Shown here piece by piece: positions 846-37,747 of a stretch of DNA of 37,747 nt. Made by a program: the position numbers and the translations under genes. Within the stretch, counting starts at the first letter, position 1. Every line of letters starts with the position of its first letter. The DNA is taken from assembly GCA_964016885.1 (NCBI GenBank), contig CAXHJY010001726.1, forward strand, positions 1-37,747, given 5' to 3'. The stretch is from Eledone cirrhosa (lineage: Eukaryota). The notes under the pieces are model-generated. The model did no database searches. It was not told the origin of the DNA and was given only the letters and a program-made list of their open reading frames with translations.

Positions 846-940
846 AGCTGCAGGTTTAGCTGGCCTCCTCCAAGGTATATCTCATTGGAGGGGTCTTGGG
901 TAATTTAATGATAGGGACCCCAGGCCTATCATCTCATTTC

Positions 941-1213
941 TACAGCTGAGTAAATTGGAGCAACGTGAAATAAAGTGTCTTGCTCAAGGAAACAACACAT
1001 CACCCGGTCCGAGAATTGGACTCACAACCTTTCGAGTGCAAGCCCAATGCTCTAACCACTAAGCCATGTGCCTTCACTACAGCTGACTAAACTGGAGTAA
1101 CGTGAAATAAAGTGCCTTGCTCAAGGAAACAACACGTCACCCGGTCCGAGAATTGAACTCACAACCTTTCGAGTGCAAGCCCAATCCTCTAACCACTAAG
1201 CCATGCGCCTTCA
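941..1213 (-). mobile_element. Tandem dimer (2 x 137 bp) of the 5' part of a tRNA-derived CORE-like SINE
   Basis: Units 941-1077 and 1078-1213 are near-identical. The minus strand reads TGAAGGCGCA-TGGCTTAGTGG (A box)...GAGTTCAATTC (B box)...GTTTCCTTGAGCAAGGCACTTTATTTCAC, which resembles the CORE/MIR motif CCTTGGGCAAGTCACTT. Confidence 0.85.
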
Positions 1214-3260: not shown

Positions 3261-3282
3261 CAAAACAGAAACAGTTATTTTG

Positions 3283-3628
3283 TCAGTATCGGTAGAGCGA
3301 CAGACGCCATGTTTTGCAGCATAGAGTTATGGCCCCTTAAATTCTGAGTTCAAATCCCGCCGAGGTTAGATTTGCCTTTCATCCTTACGGGGTCGATAAA
3401 ATAAAGTACCAGTAATACACTGGGATAATTGCTGGCCTTGTACCAAGAAGTAGAAACAATTATTGGTGGATTGGCAGTATTGGTAGAGGGTCGGACGCCT
3501 TGCTTTGACGCATAGAGTTTCGGCCCTTGCCATTCTAAGTTCAAATCCAGCCGAGATTAACTTTGCCTTTCATCCTTACGGGGTCGATAAAATAAAGTAC
3601 CAGTAATACACTGGGGTTGTTTTAATAA
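3283..3628 (+). mobile_element. Head-to-tail dimer of a tRNA-derived SINE with a Meta-domain-like centre
   Basis: A-box-like TGGCAGTATTGG and B box GAGTTCAAATCC, followed twice by TTTGCCTTTCATCCTTACGGGGTCGATAAAATAAAGTACCAG. The first copy ends GCTGGCCTTGTACCAAGAAGTAGAAACAATTATT. The same family recurs at 12.7-13.0, 20.4, 20.7 and 23.9-24.6 kb. Confidence 0.88.
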
Positions 3629-12800: not shown

Positions 12801-13020
12801 GAATATATATATATAGTAGAGGGTCGGACGCCATGCTTTGACGCAAAAAGTTACGTCCCTTTACGATGTGAGTTCAAATCCCGCCGAGGTTAACTTTGCC
12901 TTTCATCCTTACGGAGTCGATAAATAAAGTACCAGTAATACACTGGTGTTGATTTAATCGACTTTACCCTCCCACAAAGTTGCTGGCCTTGTGCTTATAT
13001 AAGAAACCATTATTATTATT
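12672..13020 (+). mobile_element. Meta-domain-like SINE tail plus near-full copy, separated by an expanded (TA)n tract
   Basis: Tail TTGCTGGCCTTGTGCCAAAAGTAGAAA at 12674-12700. A copy from about 12816 reads GTAGAGGGTCGGACGCC...GAGTTCAAATCCCGCCGAGGTTAACTTTGCCTTTCATCCTTACGGAGTCGATAAA...GCTGGCCTTGTGC...(ATT)n. Confidence 0.87.
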
Positions 13021-20368: not shown

Positions 20369-20369
<1 letters not shown>

Positions 20370-20508
20370 ATAATTGTTTCTACGTTTTGGCACAAGGCCA
20401 GAAATTACCCAGGGCATTACTGGTACTTTATTTTATCGACCCCGTAAGGATGAAAGGCAAAGTTAACCTCGGCGGGATTTGAACTCAGAATGGCAAGGGC
20501 TGTAACTC
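20369..20508 (-). mobile_element. Meta-domain-like SINE copy, 5' truncated
   Basis: CTGGTACTTTATTTTATCGACCCCGTAAGGATGAAAGGCAAAGTTAACCTCGGCGGGATTTGAACTCAG is the reverse complement of the family seen at 3345-3415. Confidence 0.9.
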
Positions 20509-20641
20509 TCTCTATATATATAGTAATAATAATAAACGTGAAGACTAGACTAAATCCAAAGAGGGCTCGATAAGGATAAATATATATCAAACATATAAGA
20601 ACCCTAGAGCAAATATTTATTAAAATAACAGATTAAAATTT

Positions 20642-20997: not shown

Positions 20998-21890
20998 TGT
21001 ATAAATTCCACTCCGTTGTTTCGTTCCATTTGGGTTTTATATACACCTTTTGCTTTATAAATTTACTTCTAATATACATTCCCTTCTACCTGTTTCGTTC
21101 CACTTAGGTTTTTATATCCACCTTTTACCCTATAACTTTACTTCTAGTATAAATGTCCCTTCTACCCGTTTCGTTCCACTTGGGTTTTATATATCTTTTC
21201 ACTTTATTAAATGTATTGAGTCGTCAAGTAGGAAATTTGTTGAAATTTATTTTATTTTCTAGAAATTTCTCCAAATTTCATACTTGACGACCTAATATTC
21301 CCCTTCCTTTCGTTTCATTACACATGGGTTTTATATACACCTTTTGCCTTATAAATTTACTTCTCGTATAAATTTCCCTTGCCCCTGTTTCGTTCCACTT
21401 GGGTTTTATATATCCATTTTTGTTTCTTAAAGTCATTTCCCGCCGCCGTTTCGTTCCACTTAGATTTCATATACAGCTTTCTGCCTTATAAATTTTTTTC
21501 TAGTATAAATTTCCCTTGCCCCTGTTTCGTTCCACTTGGGTTTTATATATCCTTTTTTCTTTCTTAAAGTCATTTCCCTCCGCCATTTCGTTCCACTTAG
21601 ATTTCATATACAGCTTTCTGCCTTATAAATTTTTTTCTAGTATAAATTTCCCTTGCCCCTGTTTCGTTCCACTTGGGTTTTATATATCCTTTTTTCTTTC
21701 TTAAAGTCATTTCCCTCCGCCATTTCGTTCCACTTAGGTTTCATATACAGCTTTCTGCCTTATAAATTTTTTTCTAGTATAAATTTCCCTTGGCCCTGTT
21801 TCGTTCCACTTGGGTTTTATATAACCTTTTCTCTTTCTTAAATGTATTTCCCTTCCCTCCGTTTCGTTCCACTTCGGTTTTATATATAAC
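20998..21890. repeat. Pyrimidine-rich satellite with a 137 bp dimeric unit (about 61 + 76 bp subunits, shared core TTTCGTTCCACTT)
   Basis: Near-identical ORFs start at 21379, 21516 and 21653 (period 137). The core motif occurs twice per period. More diverged monomers lie at 21000-21330. Confidence 0.93.
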
Positions 21891-22059
21891 ATTTCTGATA
21901 ATACCCCCCCCCCCCCCCACACACACACACACTTTCTTCTCCAAGATAGACTAATTATGGAAATCCGGCAAATGAAAGAAACGTCTTAAGGAAACACACA
22001 GAACTCCGTTGCTACCAACTGGTTCCTTTGTTTTTGAAACTCCCCAAGAGATTTATTTG

Positions 22060-23355
22060 CCACAGTTGTTGTTGTTGTTGTTGTTGAGGTGGTGGTGGCG
22101 GTGTTGGTGTTGGTAGTGGTGGCGGTGGTGGTAGTGGATGGGATTTTGAAGCTCTCCAACAGTTTTAGTTGCCTCGGTTGTTGTTGTTGTTGTTGTTATT
22201 GTGTGGCGGCGGCGGTGTTGGTGTTGGTGGTGGAGTTTTTGAACGTCCCCAACAGTTTTATTTGCCAGAGTTGTTGTTTTCTGTTGTGAGATGGTGGCGG
22301 CGGTGGTGGTGGTGGTGGTACTGGTGTTGGTGGTGGTGGTGGTGGTAGTGGTGGTACTGGTGTTGGTGGTGGTGGTGGTGGTGGTACTGGTGTTGTTGGT
22401 GGTTGTGCTCTTATATCCTTCAGCCATTTTGCTAGTTTGTATTTATATATATATATAATGTGTGTGTATATATATATATATGTGAGTGTGTATATATATA
22501 TCTATGTATGTATATATGTATGTATATATATGTGTATATATATATATGTGTATATCCATGTGTATGTATGTATATATATATATATATATATATCTATGTG
22601 TATGTATATGTATGTGTATGTATATGTATGTATATATATATGTATATGTATGTTTATATATATATCTATGTATATATGTATATGTATGTTTATATATATC
22701 TATGTATATATGTATATGTATGTTTATATATATCTATGTATATATATGTATGTATGTGTATATATATATACATATATATATGTATGTGTATATATATATA
22801 CATATGTATATGTATGTATATGTATGTATATATATATATATCTATGTGTATGTATGTATGTATGTATATATATGTATGTATGTATGTATGTATATATATA
22901 TATGTATGTATATATATGTGTATGTATATATATATATATATGTATGTATATATATATGTATATGTATGCATGTATACATGTGTGTATATATATATGTATG
23001 TATATATATATGTATATATATATGTGTATATATACATGTGTATATATATACGTGTGTGTACAGTAATTCAATGCATATTGGTATTCTTGTAAACATATTT
23101 TCCAAAATAATATATACACACACATATATATATATATACACATATATATATATGTGTGTATATATACATGAATATATATACAAGTACACACACACATCAC
23201 AAATACACACAAACGCACACACATACACACACACACACGTCCACACAGATACACACACGTACACAGATACACACAATCACACACACATATATACACACAT
23301 ACACACACACACGCGCGCGCGCGCAGATAATACACACACACATATATACACACAC

Positions 23356-23405
<50 letters not shown>

Positions 23406-23900
23406 CTAAAGGCAACCCCTTTATTACACACCTGGAAACTTCCGTGTATATTTATCTGTTTAATTAAAGATTTTCCCATCTGTTTTGTTGCCAAGGGTGA
23501 TGATGCTGAGGTTGATGGTGATGTTGTTGTTGGTGGTGGTGGTGGTGAAGGTTATGGTGGTGTTGGTGGTGGTGGTGGTGATGATTGTTGATGGTGAAGG
23601 TTATGGCGGTGGTGGTGGTGATGATTGTTGATGATTATTATTATTGTTGATGGTGGTGGTTATGGCGGTGGTGGTGGTGATGGTGAAGGTTATGGCGGTG
23701 GTAGTGGTGTTGATGGTTGTGATGGTTGTGGTAGTGGTGGTTAGGATGGTGGTGGTGGTGGGGATGATGGTTATGGCGGTAGTGGTTGTGGTGGTGTTGA
23801 TGGTGGTGATGGTTGTGGTAGTGATGGTAGTGGTGGTGGTGGTGATGGTAGTGGTGATGAGGGTGGTGGTGATGCTAATATTGATGCTGCTACTGCTGTC
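22060..23900. repeat. Triplet (GGT/GTT) tracts flanking a (TA/TATG/CA)n field
   Basis: Seen directly: triplets at 22064-22405 and 23495-23880, di- and tetranucleotide repeats at 22445-23403. Confidence 0.9.
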
Positions 23901-23904
23901 GAGG

Positions 23905-24630
23905 TCAATGACATAAAGTACCAGTAATACTCTGGGTAATTACTGGCCTTGTGCTAAAAGTAGAAACAATTATTGTCGATGAACTTAAGGACCATGGAGT
24001 CGGTAGAGCGTCGGACAGCATTCTATGTGGTATTTAGTTATGTCATTTTAACGTTATGAGTTCGATTCCGTCTGAGATCAGCTTTGCCTTTCATCCTTAC
24101 AGGGTCGATAAAATGAAGTACCAGTAACGTACTAGGGTAGATTTAATCGACTTTCCCCTCTCCTCTAAATTGCTGGCCTTGTGCCTATATTATAAATCAT
24201 TATTATTGATAAACAAGGGCGTTGGATTGGCAGTAACCGTAGAAGGACGGACGCCATGAGTTGGCCGAGGTTAATTTTGCCTTTCATCTTTACGGAGTCG
24301 ATAAAATAAAGTACCAGTAATACACTGGGGTAATTTGCTGGCCTTGTGCCAAAAGTAGAAACAATTGTTGTTTCCGCCGAGGTTAACTTTGCCTTTCATC
24401 CTTACGGAGTCGATAAAATAAAGTACCAGTAATGCACTGGGGTAATTGCTGGCCTTGTGCCAAAAGTGGAAAAAATTGTTGTTGATGAACTTAAGGAGGG
24501 TGGATTGGCTGAGCCGGTAGAGCGTCGTACAGCATGATTTGTGGTATTTAGTTTAAGGGTATCCAACGTTCTGAGTTCGAATCCCTGCGAAGTCAGCTTT
24601 GCCATTGATCCCTACGGGGCCGATAAATTA
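23905..24630 (+). mobile_element. Cluster of about 5 head-to-tail full and partial copies of the Meta-domain-like SINE
   Basis: The TTTGCC(T/A)TT.ATC.(T/C)TAC.G.G.CGATAAA block occurs at about 24083, 24277, 24388 and 24598. The CTGGCCTTGTGC tail occurs at about 23943, 24173, 24338 and 24449. B boxes GAGTTCGATTCC (24058) and GAGTTCGAATCC (24573). Confidence 0.9.
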
Positions 24631-24661
24631 AGGAACTATCGAGAATTAAATTAAGAACAAT

Positions 24662-24700
24662 AGGGTCGTTGTGGCCTTGAGCAAGAAACTCTATTCAATG
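24662..24700 (+). mobile_element. Short CORE-like SINE remnant
   Basis: CGTTGTGGCCTTGAGCAAGAAACTCTATT resembles the minus-strand GTTGTTTCCTTGAGCAAGACACTTTATT of 941-1077. Confidence 0.5.
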
Positions 24701-24927
24701 TTTCTATCCTTCACAGTAATAGACCCTTCTTTCTAGAATAGCCAAGAAAGCATCCACGGGAGCCAAATACATAAGGGTTCAGCTATATCTGTATAAGGGT
24801 CGGCTGTAGCAATATCTGAAAAGAAACTGAGGGCCCTGTCATTAAATCCTACGAAAACCCTTCTCGGATTTACAACACACACTCACATTCACGTAGACAA
24901 AGAAATAGTTATACATACACATATATA

Positions 24928-24975
<48 letters not shown>

Positions 24976-25360
24976 TATATTCCCTTTTTCGGATTATATT
25001 ACTGTGAGAGCCCTGGTTTTCTGTTGAGCTCTGCTGATGAATGAAATTCCAACCGTGACCATCTCCACTGAAAGTTTTCATGAAATAGTCTTTTAAGACT
25101 ATACAGAGCATTTGATGTTATTCCAAATTGAAGGATAAGTGTTTCAAACTTTATTTTATCATGAGTTAAAGGTCTATAGATTTTTCCCTGGATTTTACTA
25201 AATTCTGTGGAGGAATTTATATCCTGATTCTCTTTTGAGATGAGTTTGAGTTATTTTTTCCTAAATCTTTCGTTAACTACTTTTCCCATCTTGACGTTAT
25301 AGTCGCATATATGTTATAGAATGCCGTTAGCTTCTTGCTAAAACAATCTCTATACCTCTC

Positions 25361-25400
<40 letters not shown>

Positions 25401-25565
25401 GTAGGTCCCGGGTTGAGTCGGGGATAACCACAGTAAGTAAGGTACTCAATACATGGCAGAGTAAAAATTTTTTATTTTATAGAAGGAGCTTCTACAGGAC
25501 TAGTACTGTTTCATTCAGATGAAACAGTACTAGTCCTGTAGAAGCTCCTTCTATAAAATAAAAAA
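25401..25565 (-). mobile_element. Family A element, truncated within the hammerhead and folded back (perfect 47 bp inverted repeat)
   Basis: Arms 25468-25514 and 25519-25565 are exact reverse complements around a TCAG loop. 25401-25467 is an unpaired tail. Homologous to 4730-4836 and flanked by (TA)n on both sides. Confidence 0.8.
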
Positions 25566-25884
25566 AATATATATATATATGTGTGTGTGTGTGTATTTAT
25601 GGATATACATATATACATGCACACATATATATCCATTTCTATATATATATACTTATAGAAAAATGCATATATATACAAATGTATACAACTACATATACAT
25701 ACATACATACATGCATACACATACATGTATACATTCATACAGATATTTGCGCCAAAAAAAATATATAGATGTACATATATATTGACTCACACACATATAT
25801 AAACACTAAAATTTTACATGCACGCATTGCTTCCTATATATATATATATACACACACATATATATACACATATATATATGCATA

Positions 25885-25926
<42 letters not shown>

Positions 25927-25952
25927 TATATATATGTGTATATATATATTAA

Positions 25953-26002
<50 letters not shown>

Positions 26003-26202
26003 CATATGTATATATATATATATATATGTGTATATGTATATATATATATATATACATATGTATATATATATATACATATATATACATAGAATATTCTTGT
26101 ACATGGAGGTATAGACATACATGAATGTAATCTTACGAACAATAAATCCGGTTTTCATATGCGCATGCTCAGTCACGCATATATCAAATAGTTATACCTG
26201 TG

Positions 26203-26263
<61 letters not shown>

Positions 26264-26388
26264 TATATTTGTACATGTATACTGACGCATATATAGATAG
26301 ATAGATAGAGAGAGAGATAAATGTATGTATAATATTACATGTGAGTACACCTATGTATCCTACAACTATATATATACATACATCTTTA

Positions 26389-26449
<61 letters not shown>

Positions 26450-26523
26450 GTGTGTGGGTGTGTAAATTTCTACTCATATATTTATGAATATATATAACTA
26501 TATGCATGTGTGGAATAGTTGAA

Positions 26524-26559
<36 letters not shown>

Positions 26560-26689
26560 TAAATACCTATGTATATAGGTACACATCTTTAACATTTTCA
26601 TATATACGACACGACGATTCTGTCACGCCACCCCACACACCCACAACACAATCACCCACCCACCCATATACTTACATGTATACATAACT

Positions 26690-26700
26690 ACATATATCTT

Positions 26701-26742
<42 letters not shown>

Positions 26743-26768
26743 TATATGAATATATAACTACATATATA

Positions 26769-26804
<36 letters not shown>

Positions 26805-26830
26805 TATATGAATATATAACTACATATATA

Positions 26831-26866
<36 letters not shown>

Positions 26867-26933
26867 TATATAACTACATATACGTTCATATATATATGTA
26901 TATATATATTCATATATAACTACATATATATTC

Positions 26934-26960
<27 letters not shown>
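26690..26960. repeat. Short minisatellite anchored by TATATAACTACATATATA with (TA)n spacers
   Basis: The anchor recurs about 4 times. Confidence 0.8.
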
Positions 26961-26968
<8 letters not shown>

Positions 26969-27266
26969 TGTCTCTATACGAATTTATACATATGTGTATG
27001 TTGTGTGTGGATGTGTGTGTCGTGATCCATTTACAAAAGACCAGCCCGTAAGCAAAAGAGAGCGGTAACCGTGGAAGACAATTTGACTGTAACAATGGCG
27101 GTGTATTCCGTTCACACAAGATGGTTTCCTTTCATGGCGGCCATTTTGGTTCTCATCCTTATGAAGAAAACTCTTCCTTTCTGAGCGGAAGGTTGACAAT
27201 GAGTAGTACAAGTTCATCTTTCAGATGAGAACTTGTCTTATTTATATTTATATATACATATATTTA

Positions 27267-27304
<38 letters not shown>

Positions 27305-27345
27305 TGAATAAATATATATATATATATATAGATATATAAATATGA

Positions 27346-27382
<37 letters not shown>

Positions 27383-27496
27383 TATATAAATATATATATA
27401 TTTATAGATAGATTTATATATAAATAGAAGTATATAGATAGATAGATATATAGAGAGAAAAATAGAAATATATACATATTTAAATAGATACTTGTT

Positions 27497-27568
<72 letters not shown>

Positions 27569-27709
27569 TATGTAGGTAGGTATGTAATAGGTATCTATGT
27601 ATATTTATTTTTGTTTAAATTTCTTTATTATACATGTTTATTTTTTTTTGTTTCGCTTAACATTATACGTATTTTTTTTTCTTGTAATTTTCATAAGTAT
27701 TGGTAAATC

Positions 27710-27752
<43 letters not shown>

Positions 27753-27971
27753 TTTTTATTATCAGATGAGTATTTGGCGGAGGAATTATATATATTGTAT
27801 GTGTGGGTCGGTGTGTATATATATATATGTATGTGTGTGTCTGTATATATGTGTGTATTTGTGTGTATGTATATATATATTTTGTGTGAATATATGTGTA
27901 TATATATATATATATATACTGTATGTGAATATGCATATATGTTGTGTGTGTATGTGTATAGTATGCGTGTT

Positions 27972-28031
<60 letters not shown>

Positions 28032-28058
28032 AATATATTTATACACACACATACACGC

Positions 28059-28092
<34 letters not shown>

Positions 28093-28608
28093 GTATATAG
28101 ATATATATAGAGAGAGGGAGTGAAATACATATATACATACAAATATATATATACAGATATATATACGTATATATATATGAATATATATATACATATATAT
28201 ATATATACACACATATATACACATTTATATATACACACACACACACGCACACACACACGCATATATATATATATATATATATACAATACATGAATATAGG
28301 TACACGTATATTTGTAGAGAAACAAAATGAATTCTGGTGATAGATAAGTCAATTCACAAATATACAAAGCTCGACGCAAGCTTACAAATATACTCATGTC
28401 TATATAGTATTGTATTTGGGGCTTTGCGCATGTGCAACTCTTTGACGTTGTGCATCTGTTATATATATATATATATATACATATATATGCACACACATAT
28501 ATATTTGTGTGTTTGTGAGTTCATGTATATATATATATATATATATAAATATATATGTAAGAATCTCTGAATGTATGTATTTCATATATTTATATATATA
28601 TATATATA

Positions 28609-28888
28609 TACGATATTAAATAAATGGAAACTATATTTATAAAACCATATTTATTTCATTATATATATTTCAGGGATATCATATTAACAATATGCTATGC
28701 CTTCCTCAGACAAAATACAATATAAACAGTTTTATAGATAAATAGATTTGACATACCGTACAATATGGTTTTATAAATATAGTTTCCATTTATTTAATAT
28801 CGTAAATATACTCCAAATACTTGTCGAGTGCTTTTATATCAGTTATAAATATTTACTAGTTGTAACCCAACAATTTAAATATAACTTT

Positions 28889-28890
<2 letters not shown>
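28609..28890. mobile_element. Hammerhead-bearing element, family B, copy 1 (inverted segment plus tailed segment)
   Basis: Perfect 43 bp inverted repeat at 28609-28651 / 28762-28804, then a tail at 28805-28890. Homologous to 34686-35120 and flanked by (TA)n. Confidence 0.78.
28652..28717 (-). ncRNA. Type I hammerhead ribozyme motif with palindromic mini stem III
   Basis: Minus strand: UAUUUUGU-CUGAGGA-AGGcAUAgCAUAUU-guu-AAUAUGaUAUcCCU-GAA-AUAUAUAU-A-AUGAAAUA. Stem I is 8 bp (two G.U pairs), stem II is long, and the triplet is AUA (cut between 28660 and 28659). Confidence 0.8.
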
Positions 28891-28942
<52 letters not shown>

Positions 28943-29091
28943 ATGTGTGTGTGTGTGTCAGCAATTATGGGGGCGAGCAAGATAGATCCTGGCGTGTGGG
29001 GCAACATAACTGAAGATGAGAATTTAATGATTATGGGATGAGATTGTGTGTGTATGTGTGTGCGTGTGTGTGTGTCTGTGTGTGTGTGTGC

Positions 29092-29335
29092 CAGAAATGG
29101 CGGTGGCGGAGTTTTCATACACTTTAATTAACACTCGTGTCACTCCCTCGTTAATTACCATTAATTATCTTCGTAAACAAAGAAACAATAGTTCTATGAA
29201 ACGATTATGAAAATGGCGAACGCTGACCGTACGCCGGCTTGTTGTTGCAAGCTGCAAGAACGCGGCGTTGTCTGTTATTAAAATACTCGAATAAACTCGG
29301 TCGTATGTGACCCACGAGTCGGCAAATTGTGGAGA
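29092..29335. promoter_or_regulatory. Candidate cis-regulatory island (CpG-containing, clustered TF-like motifs)
   Basis: TAATTA at 29125, 29152 and 29162; GTAAACA at 29173; AACAAT at 29184; AAAATGGCG at 29210. Motif matches only. Confidence 0.3.
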
Positions 29336-29635
29336 GTTGCCTGTGGGAATCGAACTAGCATCTACCCTAAACCACACGGTTGTCTTACCTTTCTGTCTAT
29401 ATTTCTTTCCTCCAGCAATACCTTTGTTTGTTTATGATTCTCTTATCCATCCTGTTGACTCCTGCGTATAATTTACACAGGTACAGATGCTGTGCCCCGG
29501 GGTTTTTTTTGGGGGGGGGGGGGGGGGGGGGGGTTAGGATAGATCGACTTTCGTGAGATAGGACCGAGGAAACAATGTTTCCGTTGGTCTTTCCAATTGA
29601 TAATACTATCTATCGGTTGCAACTCCAGATAGAAG

Positions 29636-29665
29636 GTGCAATGTGAAATAAAGTGTCTTGCTCAA
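29636..29665 (-). mobile_element. CORE-like SINE fragment abutting the 48 bp minisatellite
   Basis: GCAATGTGAAATAAAGTGTCTTGCTCAA matches 960-987 with one mismatch. Confidence 0.75.
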
Positions 29666-30752
29666 CCTGATCCAGACAAAAGCACTGGCTCAAGTGCTGG
29701 TCTCGGCGTTCATGTACCTGATCCATACAACACTGGCTCAAGTGCTGGTCTCCGCGTTCATGTACCTGATCCATACAACACTGGCTCAAGTGCTGGTCTC
29801 GGCGTTCATGTACCTGATCCATACAACACTGGCTCAAGTGCTGGTCTCGGCGTTCATGTACCTGATCCATACAACACTGGCTCAAGTGCTGGTCTCGGCG
29901 TTCATGTACCTGATCCATACAACACTGGCTCAAGTGCTGGTCTCGGCGTTCATGTACCTGATCCATACAACACTGGCTCAAGTGCTGGTCTCGGCGTTCA
30001 TGTACCTGATCCATACAACACTGGCTCAAGTGCTGGTCTCAGCCTTCATGTACCTGATCCATACAACACTGGCTCAAGTGCTGGTCTCAGCCTTCATGTA
30101 CCTGATCCATACAACACTGGCTCAATTGCTGGTCTCGGCGTTCATGTACCTGATCCATACAACACTGGCTCAAGTGCTGGTCTCGGCGTTCATGTACCTG
30201 ATCCATGCAACACTGGCTCAAGTGCTGGTCTCGGCGTTCATGTACCTGATCCATACAACACTGGCTCAAGTGCTGGTCTCCGCGTTCATGTACCTGATCC
30301 ATACAACACTGGCTCAAATGGTGATCTCGGCGTTCATGTACCTAATCCATACAACACTGGCTCAAGTGCTGGTCTCGGCGTTCATGTACCTGATCCATAC
30401 AACAGTGGCTCAAGTTCTTGTCTCGGCGTTCATGTACCTGATCCATACAACACTGGCTCAAGTGCTGGTCTCGGCGTTCATGTACCTGATCTATACACCA
30501 CTGGCTGAAGTGCTGGTCTCGGCGTTCATGTACCTGATCCATGCAACACTGGCTCAAGTGCTGGTCTCGGCGTTCATGTACCTGATCTATACACCACTGG
30601 CTCAATTGCTGGTCTCGGCGTTCATGTACCTGATCCATGCAACACTGGCTCAAGTGCTGGTCTCGGCGTTCATGTACCTGATCTATACACCACTGGCTGA
30701 AGTGCTGGTCTCGGCGTTCATATACCTGATCCATACAACAGTGGCTCAAGTG
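29666..30752. repeat. 48 bp minisatellite, about 22 copies (CCTGATCCATACAACACTGGCTCAAGTGCTGGTCTCGGCGTTCATGTA)
   Basis: Exact 48 bp period with few substitutions and no spacers. Gives 16-aa repeating ORFs in several frames. Confidence 0.97.
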
Positions 30753-30789
30753 ACTGTGTCTATGACCAGTGTATATAGATCACAGACAC

Positions 30790-32145
<1,356 letters not shown>

Positions 32146-32177
32146 ATTAATTTTTATGGTTGAATCACCAGGATCTA

Positions 32178-32574
32178 CATCATCATCATCATCATCATCA
32201 TCATCGCCCCCCCCCCCACCCACCACCACCACCATCATCACCACCATCATCATCTTTATTACCATTCTTATCGCCTTCATCATCATCATTATCATCTACA
32301 ACATCCACATACCTCATCCTTGTCATTATTACAACCACCGCCATCATCGTCATCATCATCATCATCATCACCACCACCATCGCCGCCATCATCATCATCA
32401 TCGCCATCGCCATCTTCGTCATCGTCATTGTCGTCATCATCGACTATAATATCCGACCACTCCTCCAGTCTAACTTGTCACCACTTCCGCTACTTCCACC
32501 ACATCCGGTACTTCCGTCTTACTAATATTCGCGTTGCCGCCGCCGCCGCCGCCACCGAATTTACCTTCACGATC

Positions 32575-32605
<31 letters not shown>

Positions 32606-33210
32606 ACAACAAAACCACTACTATCACCATCATCAACAAGACCACCATCAACAACACTATCGCCGCAACCAACACCACCACCACCACCGACAGCAGTATC
32701 ACCACGCCATTAACCCAACCAACAACACCACCAACACTCTCGCCGCAACCTACACCACCACCACCAACTCCACCACCACGACAACTACCACCATAACACC
32801 ACCTCTTACCACCACCAACACCACCTACACCACCACCACCGACAGCAGTATCACCACACCATTAACACAACCAACAACACAACAACACTCTCGCCGCAAC
32901 AACACCACCACCACAACTCCACCTACCACCACAACTACCACCTATTAACACCACCACTACCACCACCACCACCACCACCACTCACCACCGACAGCAGTAT
33001 CACCACAGCATTAACACACCACCACCACACCACCGCTTCACTAAAATCACTACCACTAACATGACCACCAACATTACACAACCAACGCCAATAACCACAT
33101 CTAACACACCTACCACCTCCATCAACACTACCACCATCAATACACCACACAACAACACTATCACCACTATCACCACACCTAACAGCACTACCACAACACC
33201 ACCACCAGCC
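32178..33210. repeat. (CAT/CAC/AAC)n triplet tract with an internal about 150 bp repeat
   Basis: ACCACCGACAGCAGTATCACCAC occurs at about 32683, 32834 and 32984. Confidence 0.88.
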
Positions 33211-34302
33211 ATGCTGTAATGTCCAAAAACCTTGTGTCTCACAAAGTAGTTACATATTCCTCTAGAAATAGCACCAAATCCCTTCAAAGTATATATATAT
33301 ATATATATACATATAATTGCTGTTTATGTATATACATGTATAATATATGTATATATAATATTTATCAATAAGTAAATTATTTATAAATTTATTGAATGAT
33401 AAATCATGAATCGCAAATTGAAAATATTTGACGCCATTTGAATTGCATAAATTGTATATATATATACATAATACCACACACACAGACACACACACACACA
33501 TACATACATACATACACAGACACACATACATACATACATACAAGACACACTTAATATACACACACATTACACTACTTAATACACACACACACACACTAAT
33601 TACCATCATACATACATCATACATACAACACTAATAGACACACTAACACACACACACTTACCCCACGTCTGTGTCCCGCGAGCTTATGTCTCACCTTATT
33701 GCCGAATATGAGACAACGGACGGAGGAAGAAGGATTTGGAAATTGCAGGAAGGGTAGAACGGATGGAAAAAAATGAAAATTGAACTTAGAATGCTTTCCC
33801 ATTTTAAACGTCTTCGCTTTCCTTGTCTTTATTATCACCATCATTATTTTCACCTCTTAATTACAAACTAATTTCATCTTCCTGCGACCAACACCTCTTA
33901 ATTACCAAGCCCTATTCCAACTCCTAATACCCACCTGTACACTCACAGATCTCTATCCTTCACACATATTACACCCACTCAATTTCATTCGCTCCACCCC
34001 TCCTCAGCCATCTATATTTCACCAATATCATCCCATCAACTTCACCTACTTAAATGTACTGACACTAATATCTTTGTACTAGTTAATATTCACATTAATA
34101 TATACACACTATGCACACTTAAATAAGCACACATACATACATATATGCACACATATATATATACATATATACACATAATTACATACACATACATATCTCG
34201 ATCAAAAGAACTCTTAATACACACACATTTCTCTACCCACAACAACAAAAAAAAGCTGAATTTGGTGGCTGAATTGCTGCAGCCTTCTTTAATATATATA
34301 TG

Positions 34303-34544
34303 ACACAGAGGAGACAGGGGTTAGCTGGACATGGTCACCGACATCCAGAGTTGACATTGCACTCAGTGCTCCTGTGGGAGCCCCTACATGGACACACTAG
34401 AAGAGGAAGACCAAGGTTACGTATGTTGATGCCCTAAGGACAGACACTGGTCTGCTGGACACGCAGGACATGGCAGCGATAATGAGGGACAGAGACCGCT
34501 GGAGAGAACTCGTCCATGGATCTCGGGAATTTTACCCGCCCTAG
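34303..34544 (+). mobile_element. 5'-truncated 3' end of an RTE-clade (RTE/RTE-X-like) LINE ORF2, with one frameshift
   Basis: Translates TQRRQGLAGHGHRHPELTLHSVLLWEPLHGHTRRGRPR /frameshift near 34417/ TYVDALRTDTGLLDTQDMAAIMRDRDRWRELVHGSREFYPP*. This matches the RR-x-x-(L/F)AGH...W.P..G...RGRP...Y.D......G......M.DR..WR C-terminal signature of RTE-type ORF2. The TAG at 34542-34544 is followed by an AT-repeat tail. Confidence 0.85.
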
Positions 34545-34726
34545 ATATATACTATATATATATATACTTTATTAAATACCAGACTAAGGTTAGCGAGACT
34601 CTGCTTTCATCCTAACGGATGATATGAACTAATAAAGTCAATCTGTCAATTTATTACTATATATATATATTATATATATATATATTACGATATTAAACAA
34701 ATGGAAACTATATTTATAAACCATAC

Positions 34727-34788
34727 TATTCATTATACATATTTCAGGGATACCATATTAAAGATATGCATCCTTCTTCAGATAAATA
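34727..34788 (-). ncRNA. Type I hammerhead ribozyme motif (left arm of the palindrome)
   Basis: Minus strand: UAUUUAU-CUGAAGA-AGGaugcauauc-uuu-aauaugguaucCCU-GAA-AUaug uAU-A-AUGAAUA. The core is intact, stem I is 7 bp, and stem II has small indels. Confidence 0.72.
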
Positions 34789-34927
34789 CAATTATATAAG
34801 CATTTTTATAAATAAATTTGACGTACCATAAATATTGATCATAAATATTGATCAACTTCCACTTCGCACATGGAAGTTGATCAATATTTATGGTACGTCA
34901 ATTTATTATACAACTGCTTATATATTG

Positions 34928-34993
34928 TATTTTATCTGAAGAAGGCATGCCATATTTTTAATATGGTATCCCTGAAATATGTATAATGAAATA
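34928..34993 (+). ncRNA. Type I hammerhead ribozyme motif (right arm of the palindrome)
   Basis: UAUUUUAU (34928-35), CUGAAGA (34936-42), AGGcAUGCCAUAUU-uuu-AAUAUGGUAUcCCU (34943-73), GAAA (34974-77), U-augu-AU, A (34985), AUGAAAUA (34986-93). Stem I is 8 bp, stem II is 13 bp, and the triplet is AUA. Confidence 0.83.
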
Positions 34994-35257
34994 GATATGG
35001 TTTTATAAATATAGTTTCCATTTGTTAATATCGTATATCTACTCCAAAACTTTTGAGTGCTTTATATCAGTTATAAAATATTTACTTGTTGTACCCAACA
35101 ATTTTAAATAAAACTTTTGCATATATAATGTTACTATTGTTATACTTGGTGGGTCATATTGTTGTAATAATTTGTAATAATATTACAGAAATAATAACAG
35201 ATATATATATACTATTATAATGAATTAATGCCGTACACTAGATATGAGCTTTATATA

Positions 35258-35603
35258 TATGGTTCAACCCAGAGAGCAGAGAGCCTAAACAAGGCATTCT
35301 AGCTGAGGTTTCACCATCTTCCCGTTCAACGGTGGCAAACCCCTCGTCTGGATGCCACTTGCAGCGACACTTCCTCCAGCCGCAACCTAGTGCAGTCTGC
35401 AACTAACCAGGTTCTGCTGCACGTCGAGCTGAGGAGGCCAACTCTCCAAACACCGCTCGCTCCCCGACAGGCGTGCGGTCGTGCCCTTGGCAGTGGAGAA
35501 TTCTGGTGTCCTGGCCCTAGGGTTACCTCGCTCCCTACCCACCACCATAGGCCGCTGAAGATAGCCAGCTGCTGTGAGCCTCGCGGTTTGAATGTCTCGT
35601 CAG
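35258..35603. other. GC-rich unique island contiguous with the about 97 bp array; probable transposon-derived (UTR-like) sequence
   Basis: Sharp GC increase with AT-rich flanks and no recognisable protein motif. It runs seamlessly into the first repeat unit. Confidence 0.35.
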
Positions 35604-36382
35604 CGCATCTCCCCTTACCATCCTCGGGGAAACGCCTTTATCCGTCCTGTCCGCCGGGCTGTAGGGGAGGCCAGCCCGTGGGGACCCCATTTGCTCTACC
35701 ATACTAATTATCTCCTTAACATCCTCGAGGAAACGCCTTATCCATCCTCTCCGCCGGGGCTGTGGGGGAGGCCAGCCCGTGGGACCCCATTTGCTCACCA
35801 TACGCATTATCTCCCTTACATCTCCGGAACGCTTCTCCAACCTGTCCGCCGGGGCTGTAGGGGAGGCCAGCACGTGGACCCCATTTGCTCACCATACGCA
35901 TTATCTCCCTTACCATCCTCCGGGAAACGCCTTCTCCAACTGTCCACCGGCTGTAGGGAGGCCAGCCCGTGGACCCATTTGATACCACACTAATTATCTC
36001 CTCTTACCATCCTCCGGGAAACGCCTTCTCCATCCTCCGGGCGTGGGAGGCCAGCACGTGGGACCCATTTGCTATACCACACTAATTACACCTCTTACCA
36101 TCCTCCGAGGAAACGCCTCTCTATCCTGTCCGCCGGGCTGTAGGGGAGGCCAGCCCGTGGGACCCCATTTGCTACCACACTAATTATCTCCCTTACATCC
36201 TCCGGGAAACGCCTTCTCTATCCTGTCCGCCGGGCTGTAGGGGAGGCCAACCGTGGGACCCCATTTGCTAACCACACTAATTACACCTCTTACCATCCTC
36301 CGGGAATACGCCTTCTCCAACTGTCCGCCGGGGCTGTAGGGGAGGCCAGCCCGTGGGACCCCATTTGCTCACCATACGCATT
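35604..36382. repeat. GC-rich tandem repeat, about 95-100 bp unit, 8 copies
   Basis: The GGACCC(C)ATTTG anchor occurs at about 35682, 35782, 35876, 35971, 36061, 36160, 36257 and 36356. Each unit contains GGGCTGTAGGGGAGGCCAGCCC and CCATCCTCCGGGAAACGCCTT. Confidence 0.93.
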
Positions 36383-36676
36383 AATAGCAATACAATTTAC
36401 AATATAACTATTATAAATAAACCTACTTTCATTAATATTTATGTTAATGGCCGCCTTGAAATAAACAGAATGGAATAATTAAAATATATATGAATAATAC
36501 ACAGAATTGTGGCCAGCGCTACTACTAATACCACCACCACTACAACAACCACTTTACCACCACCATAACCACTACCTTTACCACATACGCCGCCCCTACA
36601 TACACATCTAGGACTGTCCGGTAAATGTGAGGACAATCACCATAATCATAATCGTAAAAATAGTGTTTATAATGAT

Positions 36677-36679
<3 letters not shown>

Positions 36680-36709
<30 letters not shown>

Positions 36710-36873
36710 CTAATATACTATATATATACGCATGGTGTGTATACTATATATATGTAATATATACATATATATTAGTGGCGTGGTGGAGTGGTTTTCAGTG
36801 GACGAGTATCGTGGGTATTAACTCCCTCCTTCCTTTCGAACCGATCATTTTTGTTATAAAATAAATATTCCTA

Positions 36874-36908
<35 letters not shown>

Positions 36909-36972
36909 AATGTATATATTTATATACATTTATATATATATATATATATATATATGTATTTATATATATGTA

Positions 36973-37009
<37 letters not shown>

Positions 37010-37133
37010 CATGTATATATGTATATATGTGTGTGTATGTGTTTATATCTTTATATATATATGTATAACGTGTTTTGTATATATCTGTTTATAGACATAT
37101 CTATATATATATATATGTATATATATATATACA

Positions 37134-37196
<63 letters not shown>

Positions 37197-37302
37197 CATA
37201 TATATGTTGATATTTATTTATATATATGTATATATATATATGGTTATATTGATATATATTTACATATATTTATATATATATATATGTTTATATATATATA
37301 TG

Positions 37303-37354
<52 letters not shown>

Positions 37355-37355
37355 G
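36680..37355. repeat. (TA)n-rich microsatellite field
   Basis: Seen directly. Confidence 0.9.
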
Positions 37356-37747
37356 CGAGGACATCTATTTTTTTTCCGTTTTCCGCCTTCCTCCGTCTCT
37401 CCTCGCCTTCCCCCGTATCTCCCTGCCGACCTGTTATTAATTTTATCAAATATATATTTATTGTACGACACCTCCCCGCCTCTTAACTCTCGTACTTTCA
37501 TCATCATATCCCTATAATTGTCTTGTCTTAGTTATTATTATCCATAAGTCCTGTAATTCCAAAAATATGAACTCCCCTCCGAACCGAACGAACACAAAGC
37601 GCTCCACAGGGGGACATACAAAAACAATCTCCACAAACCCAGAACCCACACTCTGTGTATGTGTGTGTATATATATATTTATATATATATATATATATAT
37701 AATATATATATATATATAAATATGCATATATATATTTAAAAGCCATT

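What the first reader, a model, noticed from the sequence alone, without database searches (positions are those of the whole stretch)
28652..28717. Second family-B hammerhead shows structure-preserving variation
Seen, comparing with 34928-34993: the core differs only at the free position 7 (CUGAGGA vs CUGAAGA). Stem I changes A-U to G.U, one stem II pair changes G.U to A-U (one neighbouring pair is lost), and stem III is the perfect palindrome AUAUAUAU rather than AUAUGUAU. Inference: the variation pattern fits selection on the ribozyme fold in the source elements, although two insertions are too few for statistics.
Basis: partly seen in the sequence, partly recalled or inferred. Interest (0 to 1): 0.7.

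Follow-up and report, generated by a model that had tools for sequence, protein, structure and literature searches.

The report
Penelope-type hammerhead ribozyme, variant copy
This is one variant copy of a predicted self-cutting RNA (hammerhead ribozyme) in a truncated piece of a likely Penelope-like retrotransposon; its common variants mostly spare the fold, as expected for this already described kind, and cutting was not tested.

Summary
Observation confirmed. Both insertions show the Penelope-like element (PLE) layout: a 5'-truncated inverted arm, a direct arm with a one-sided tail, and (TA)n at both ends. Public runs laid on copy B show a high-copy family under three organism labels. Five of the seven A-type alleles are common family variants (26-67% of depth in run X1), so they come from source elements. 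None of 14 listed ribozyme variants hits the 11 core positions (P=0.056). Five of 6 in the core, stem I, proximal stem II and stem III are tolerated (P about 0.006), but 25 of 65 table rows were hidden. Distal stem II is loosely constrained (6 of 8 break pairs), and no two-sided compensatory change was shown. So selection on the fold is likely but not proven. Palindromic-stem-III hammerheads that cleave as dimers are already described in PLEs. No ORF, expression or cleavage was shown. New member of a known kind; low interest.

The parts
28652..28717 (-). Copy A: type I hammerhead motif. Stem I 28717-28710 with 28659-28652; core CUGAGGA 28709-28703; stem II 28702-28672 with one C/C and one G/A mismatch; GAAA 28671-28668; self-complementary stem III 28668-28661; H17=A at 28660
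28611..28766 (-). Insertion 1, inverted 5'-truncated arm; carries copy A and ends at the main 3' end next to (TA)n
28763..28888 (+). Insertion 1, direct arm; starts about 10 nt 3' of the predicted cut site (no ribozyme), shares about 40 nt with the inverted arm, then an ~85-nt one-sided tail
28460..28610 (.). (TA)n microsatellite flanking insertion 1 on the left
28891..28942 (.). (TA)n microsatellite flanking insertion 1 on the right
34928..34993 (+). Copy B: type I hammerhead motif used as reference (core CUGAAGA, stem III AUAUGUAU)
34727..34788 (-). Copy C: third hammerhead copy, in the inverted arm (34686-34862) of insertion 2, with several single-base gaps
34866..35127 (+). Insertion 2, direct arm: upstream piece, copy B, main 3' end about 35031-35038, then ~90-nt tail ending about 35127
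   Evidence: depth profile and loose ends into (TA)n
34995..35023 (+). 29-nt block just 3' of the ribozyme with no listed variant in 4 runs and the highest depth (counterparts at about 28764-28792 + and 28622-28650 -)
   Evidence: scan P=0.17, not significant

Best explanation
The motif is a type I hammerhead in the 3' terminal repeat of a likely Penelope-like retroelement, left here as a short truncated and inverted insertion in (TA)n; in the full-length parent RNA two such motifs would pair through their self-complementary stem III and cut after H17, and selection on that fold in source lineages likely shaped the common variants. Shown: the motif, the insertion layout, the high-copy family, and the sharing of 5 of 7 alleles among many copies. 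Inferred: PLE identity (no RT/endonuclease ORF seen), dimer cleavage, and purifying selection. The genomic copy A itself is predicted to be inactive: it is a lone motif, and its stem I is predicted not to form in the insertion context.
For: Motif: full core, 8-bp stem I and an 8-nt self-complementary stem III; 0 hits in 300 resamples. A 2-bp monomer stem III costs about 3 kcal/mol, and the A+B cofold MFE forms the intermolecular 8-bp stem III plus one stem I. Layout: inverted 5'-truncated arm, one-sided tail and (TA)n ends in both insertions, as described for PLEs in PMC8557442 (passages) and PMC11167929 (parts 1-2 of 4). Family data: 3,496 X1 contigs, 68 X5, 10 X6 and 34,013 X14 reads laid; loose ends at 35026-35038 and 35117-35127 run into (TA)n; 14 of 15 shown joints are opposite-strand. 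Variation: 0 of 14 listed ribozyme variants at the 11 core positions or H17 (P=0.056). 5 of 6 in the 41 essential positions are tolerated, against an expected fraction of 0.25-0.27 (P about 0.005-0.006); 5 of 5 in X1 (P=0.0013). Bookkeeping of the hidden rows implies no change of 2% or more at C3, and at most one at a core G, in X1 (inference). No open frame over 47 codons across the element, so coding constraint is unlikely.
Against: 25 of 65 variant rows were not shown (9 for X1); if 4 or more of these are breaking changes in the essential part, P rises above 0.05 (worst case 0.30). No two-sided compensatory change among the shown rows or the 3 window copies (0 of 12 pairs). 6 of 8 listed distal stem II/loop variants break a copy-B pair. 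Core depletion alone is not significant (P=0.056 within the ribozyme, 0.14-0.22 against the whole element). The tests are post hoc. X1 shares are depth-weighted unitigs rather than copies, X1 may be the window's own sample, and X14 is RAD-seq biased to one haplotype. No RT or GIY-YIG ORF was found: 9 selected ORFs gave no such Pfam hit. Rfam gave no hammerhead match in either region at E<=10. The first pair of stem II is A-U rather than the usual G-C. In the one PLE tested in vitro, hammerhead mutants did not impair insertion (PMC11167929).
Confidence: 0.72

Rival explanations
1. The motif is a PLE hammerhead by descent, but the variation is neutral drift with transition bias; pair-keeping is a by-product of G<->A and C<->U changes giving wobble pairs.
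For: All pair-keeping stem changes are one-sided transitions; no two-sided change is shown. The ribozyme is as diverged as its flanks in substitutions. Distal stem II is broken by 6 of 8 variants. Hidden rows could remove the signal.
Against: Spectrum-weighted nulls that already include the transition bias still give P about 0.005-0.006 for 5 of 6 tolerated. No core variant is listed in runs from three organism labels. There are no gaps between A and B inside the ribozyme, against 16 gap columns in the flanks (some flank gaps may be sequence errors in B).
Confidence: 0.18
2. The element is a non-autonomous non-LTR retrozyme (short tandem monomers processed to circular RNA) or another short PLE-mobilised passenger with no coding parent of its own.
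For: No ORF seen. Only short pieces (about 150-260 nt) are present, and no listed contig spans the stretch. Retrozymes are reported in molluscs and thought to be PLE-derived (PMC7229834 passages; bioRxiv 10.64898/2026.07.22.740005 part 1 of 5).
Against: No head-to-tail tandem in the window; the shown joints are almost all opposite-strand (14 of 15). The inverted arm plus one-sided tail is the PLE layout, and the long stem II differs from the 4-bp canonical retrozyme hammerhead.
Confidence: 0.08
3. The conserved letters are kept for a DNA- or protein-recognition role (promoter or RT-binding site in the terminal repeat), not for RNA catalysis.
For: The neighbouring 29-nt block is at least as invariant as the core. 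Cleavage was dispensable for insertion in vitro in the anole PLE.
Against: The tolerated variants fall where the hammerhead model allows them (N7, wobble sites, loop II); a linear DNA motif would not predict this.
Confidence: 0.02

Closest known systems
Type I hammerheads with small palindromic helix III in the pLTRs of metazoan Penelope-like elements (Cervera and De la Pena 2014, PMC4209133; Drosophila virilis, rotifer, shrimp type)
   Same: CUGANGA/GAAA core, type I topology, palindromic stem III needing a dimer, longer than usual helix II, U-rich 5' and AU-rich 3' flanks, mostly single motifs or opposite-strand pairs 100-700 bp apart, high within-genome variability in families (read: parts 1-2 of 4, supplement passage)
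   Different: Stem II is longer (31 nt, 13-14 bp with one or two mismatches) and starts with an A-U pair, where the published consensus has a bulged H then G10.1-C11.1. Stem I is 8 bp and stem III an 8-nt palindrome. A U46->C variant seen in 21% of X14 reads would give the consensus register.
Small PLE hammerheads that cleave as dimers (Lunse, Weinberg, Breaker, RNA Biol 14:1499)
   Same: Palindromic very short stem III, type I, PLE-associated, dimer cleavage (seen only as summarised in the review PMC6765202, passages; the paper itself is not held)
   Different: Cleavage of this family is untested; sequence-level identity with their variants could not be checked.
EN+ PLE insertions of the Neptune/Penelope type with inverted 5'-truncated copy, tail and (TA)n target (Craig et al. 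2021 PMC8557442; Frangieh et al. 2024 PMC11167929)
   Same: Inverted arm, tail on one end only, microsatellite target, strong 5' truncation
   Different: Tail is about 85-95 nt here against 30-40 nt in those papers; clade cannot be assigned without the ORF; Naiads, which also target (TA)n, lack canonical hammerheads.
Metazoan non-LTR retrozymes (PMC7229834)
   Same: Type I hammerhead in a non-coding high-copy animal repeat
   Different: Retrozymes are head-to-tail tandems with canonical stems; here the copies are inverted, truncated and tailed.

Membership tests
Type I hammerhead ribozyme | Invariant core C3 U4 G5 A6 N7 G8 A9 / G12 A13 A14 A15.1 / U16.1 H17 | tested here: met
   intact in copies A, B and C; no listed core variant
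Type I hammerhead ribozyme | Three helices around the core, ends in stem I | tested here: met
   stem I 8 bp, stem II 3+9/10 bp, stem III 8 bp as dimer (2 bp as monomer); predicted stem I probability in the monomer is low (0.05-0.09 for A)
Type I hammerhead ribozyme | Match to an Rfam hammerhead covariance model | tested here: not met
   no hammerhead family at E<=10; not decisive, as these models are not expected to cover PLE variants (recalled)
Type I hammerhead ribozyme | Site-specific self-cleavage 3' of H17 | not testable with these tools
   needs an in vitro assay or RNA-end data; no RNA holder listed
PLE minimal/palindromic hammerhead (Cervera 2014 consensus) | Palindromic 15.2-16.2/loop 3 | tested here: met
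   all 8 positions self-pair in A (WC) and B (two G.U)
PLE minimal/palindromic hammerhead (Cervera 2014 consensus) | Bulged H after A9 and G10.1-C11.1 closing pair | tested here: inconclusive
   an A follows A9 and then G, but it can pair with a U before GAAA (A10.1-U11.1); consensus; the U->C variant is in 21% of X14 reads
Penelope-like element (EN+) | Inverted 5'-truncated copy adjacent to a direct copy | tested here: met
   both insertions; opposite-strand joints
Penelope-like element (EN+) | One-sided 3' tail (two RT start sites) | tested here: met
   two 3' ends, about 35031-35038 and 35117-35127; the tail is longer (85-95 nt) than the published 30-40 nt
Penelope-like element (EN+) | AT-rich / (TA)n target | tested here: met
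   (loose ends)
Penelope-like element (EN+) | ORF with telomerase-like RT and GIY-YIG endonuclease between pLTRs | tested here: inconclusive
   none in the truncated copies; no genome held, so full-length copies could not be sought
Non-LTR retrozyme | Head-to-tail tandem monomers of 150-450 nt, each with a hammerhead | tested here: not met
   inverted, not tandem, in the window; 15 joints hidden
Non-LTR retrozyme | Abundant circular RNA | not testable with these tools
   no RNA holder listed

The most novel reading that the evidence does not exclude
This is an undescribed very-high-copy PLE subtype, probably of cephalopods. It combines an A10.1-U11.1, long-stem-II hammerhead, an unusually long (~90-nt) tail and an invariant 29-nt RT-recognition block. 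Its thousands of copies across several species act as a natural mutational scan, showing that hammerhead cleavage is under selection in vivo even though it was dispensable for insertion in the one in vitro PLE system.
Probability: 0.2. Interest if true: 0.45.

Novelty: new member of a known kind. Interest (0 to 1): 0.22.

Why it matters
Whether PLE hammerheads are needed for transposition is open: mutants did not impair insertion in vitro (PMC11167929), and Naiads spread without them (PMC8557442). The kind of motif, its dimer mechanism and its variability are already described, so this copy adds an example rather than a concept. Searches for an octopus hammerhead listed no paper describing this family, but the library lacks most subscription journals and repeat databases were not searchable.

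Tried and rejected
Rfam: the 150 whole-window rows shown (of 404) were microsatellite-driven miRNA hits, and the two regions gave no hammerhead hit. Pattern scans found 0 matches in metagenome contigs, viral contigs and prokaryote genomes. Sequencing-run search: no RNA holder listed; 7 small-share rows, of which only X6 was laid; 4 of 16 runs laid in all. The pile of 12,594 read starts at 34946 in X14 was rejected as a cleavage signal: it is a DNA RAD library and the site is GCATGC (SphI, enzyme name recalled). Summed contig depth was rejected as a copy number. A coding constraint was rejected: no frame over 47 codons. The idea that copy A is left foldable inside its inverted repeat was tested and rejected: predicted stem I probability is 0 in the whole insertion, and B/C form one long hairpin. 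The four short terms were absent from the Craig 2021 supplement (cells over 400 characters are cut, so this is weak). One Cervera 2014 supplement file was not searchable. The Lunse paper is not held. Earlier scan notes near this place or like this sequence: none. ARAGORN: 0 tRNA.

Full report
Observation. The window is a microsatellite-rich, non-coding stretch of an animal-like genome. Its repeats recall an octopod, but that label is from memory and no call tested it. Copy A (28717->28652) and copy B (34928->34993) align without gaps and differ at 7 of 66 positions. On the hammerhead model these are: stem I A-U->G.U, N7 A->G, distal stem II G.U->A-U, distal stem II C-G->G/A (both sides changed, pair lost), loop II U->G, and stem III AUAUGUAU->AUAUAUAU. 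H17 is 28660, so the predicted cut is as stated. A strict type I descriptor hits 3 places in the window and 0 in 300 local resamples; the third hit is copy C at 34727-34788 (-). Rfam reports no hammerhead family in either region.

Context. Both insertions have the same build. An inverted, 5'-truncated arm ends at a fixed point next to (TA)n. A direct arm runs past that point for a further 85-95 nt and also ends in (TA)n. Insertion 1 is 28611-28888, with the ribozyme only on the inverted arm. Insertion 2 is 34686-35127, with B on the direct arm and C on the inverted arm. Craig et al. (PMC8557442, passages) describe this for PLEs: inverted 5'-truncated copy, 30-40-bp tail on one end, microsatellite bias, hammerheads in the pLTR. 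Frangieh et al. (PMC11167929, parts 1-2 of 4) explain the tail as two RT start sites. No PLE ORF is present: 70 frames of 80 aa or more were listed for 23000-37747, 9 of them were scanned against Pfam without an RT or GIY-YIG hit, and no frame across the element exceeds 47 codons. For context only, PLEs make up 6.83% of the Octopus vulgaris genome in 190 families (PMC13282606, part 1 of 3 and supplement row).

More copies. No genome is held, and pattern scans of three collections found nothing. The run search listed 16 runs, none on record as RNA. Four of them were laid on 34866-35161 at 80% likeness: X1 (organism A contigs, 3,496 of 16.3 million records), X5 (organism B, 68), X6 (organism C, 10) and X14 (organism A RAD reads, 34,013 of 12.5 million). 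The element is thus a high-copy family under three organism labels. X1 may be the window's own sample, and X5 and X6 share a study. Depth peaks just 3' of the ribozyme and falls 5'-ward. Loose ends at 35026-35038 and 35117-35127 run into (TA)n, and 14 of 15 shown joints (15 more hidden) change strand. All of this fits the PLE layout. The start pile at 34946 is a restriction site in a DNA library, not cleavage.

Variation. The variant table shows 40 of 65 rows, 14 of them inside the ribozyme. Five of A's seven alleles are common: X1 depth shares are 0.66 (34934 G), 0.62 (34949 A), 0.26 (34957 G), 0.67 (34966 A) and 0.26 (34981 A), with 0.48-0.88 in X5. The other two (N7 = G, position 23 = G) fall at sites that vary to other letters (N7 U 0.36; position 23 A 0.29). 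A's two arms share an A-specific letter and have 0 substitutions in 40 nt. The 'lost' pair is broken in most X1 depth, so it is a tolerated mismatch and B's C-G is the minority state there. None of the 14 variants lies at the 11 core positions or H17 (P=0.056). In the 41 positions that matter most (core, H17, N7, stem I, proximal stem II, stem III), 5 of 6 variants are tolerated against an expectation of 0.25-0.27 from the observed mutation spectrum (P about 0.005-0.006). The sixth, U46->C, was counted as a break although it would give the published G10.1-C11.1 register. In X1 alone the count is 5 of 5 (P=0.0013). Against this: 9 X1 rows are hidden, and 4 or more breaking ones would lift P above 0.05 (worst case 0.30). 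By kind, the hidden X1 rows include no change from C and one from G. In distal stem II and its loop, 6 of 8 variants break a copy-B pair. No two-sided compensatory change is shown, in the table or among the three window copies (0 of 12 pairs). Two hints point to such changes but are unlinked and unverified. An X5 loose end has A at the partner of the common C45->U. The hidden kinds in X6 include the A>G and A>C that would repair its two breaking changes. For the two window copies alone, P=0.26 for missing the core and 0.009-0.029 for also losing at most one pair. Substitution density in the ribozyme (7 of 66) is no lower than in the flanks (4 of 37, 2 of 40, 4 of 80). All tests are post hoc.

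Mechanism. Shown: motif, layout, family, allele sharing. Predicted by folding: a monomer stem III of 2 bp is unfavourable, while the 8-nt palindrome pairs between two molecules, and the A+B cofold MFE contains that helix and one stem I. From the literature: PLE hammerheads with palindromic stem III cleave weakly and as dimers (PMC4209133 parts 1-2 of 4; review PMC6765202 passages), and the anole PLE ribozyme needed the PLE protein. Inferred: in a full-length pLTR-ORF-pLTR transcript the two motifs would pair through stem III and cut after AUA, trimming the element RNA. Lineages that kept the core and core-proximal helices were the ones that spread, while distal stem II drifted. The window copies are likely dead ends. 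A has one motif, a stem II about 7 kcal/mol weaker than B's, and predicted stem I probability 0 within its insertion; B and C would base-pair with each other along their length.

Comparison and verdict. It works like the palindromic-stem-III PLE hammerheads and meets their sequence and layout features. Membership of the element in an EN+ PLE clade is likely but lacks the ORF, and catalysis is untested. Differences from the published consensus are modest: A-U at the base of a long stem II, and a longer tail. Cervera and De la Pena already noted consensus families with covariation and extreme variability within genomes, so structure-preserving variation is expected. Searches for octopus hammerheads listed no description of this family. 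Supplements of bioRxiv preprints were closed and repeat libraries were not searchable, so an existing repeat-database entry is possible. Verdict: real, new member of a known kind, selection on the fold likely (about 0.75) but not demonstrated by covariation; interest 0.22.

Noticed in passing
   Followed up: partly
window 25400-25565: A relative of that second family as a near-perfect 98-nt inverted repeat; both arms are truncated inside stem II and one has a long one-sided extension, again the PLE-type layout.
   Followed up: partly
window 34995-35023: 29-nt block just 3' of the ribozyme with no listed variant in four runs and the highest depth; candidate RT-binding or initiation element (scan P=0.17).
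   Followed up: partly
window 28804-28888 and 35034-35127: One-sided tails of about 85-95 nt, two to three times the 30-40 nt reported for PLE tails.
   Followed up: partly
window 34686-34862: Arm C differs from arm B mostly by single-base gaps (4 substitutions; 10 gap columns besides a 13-nt duplication at 34827-34854), and reads show letters missing from B at several places; this suggests sequencing errors in the window around this inverted repeat.
   Followed up: partly
window 29665-30761: 48-bp tandem repeat, 22.8 copies, 94% matches, open in two frames (291 and 485 aa); Pfam hits look like repeat-driven noise.
   Followed up: partly
window 940-1213, 3267-3626, 12816-13017, 20369-20509, 23900-24631: Dispersed SINE-like repeats, several as partial tandems; resemblance to octopod SINEs is recalled, not tested.
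   Followed up: no
window 35607-36383 and 21005-21897: Degenerate tandem arrays with periods of about 98/196 nt and 137 nt.
   Followed up: no
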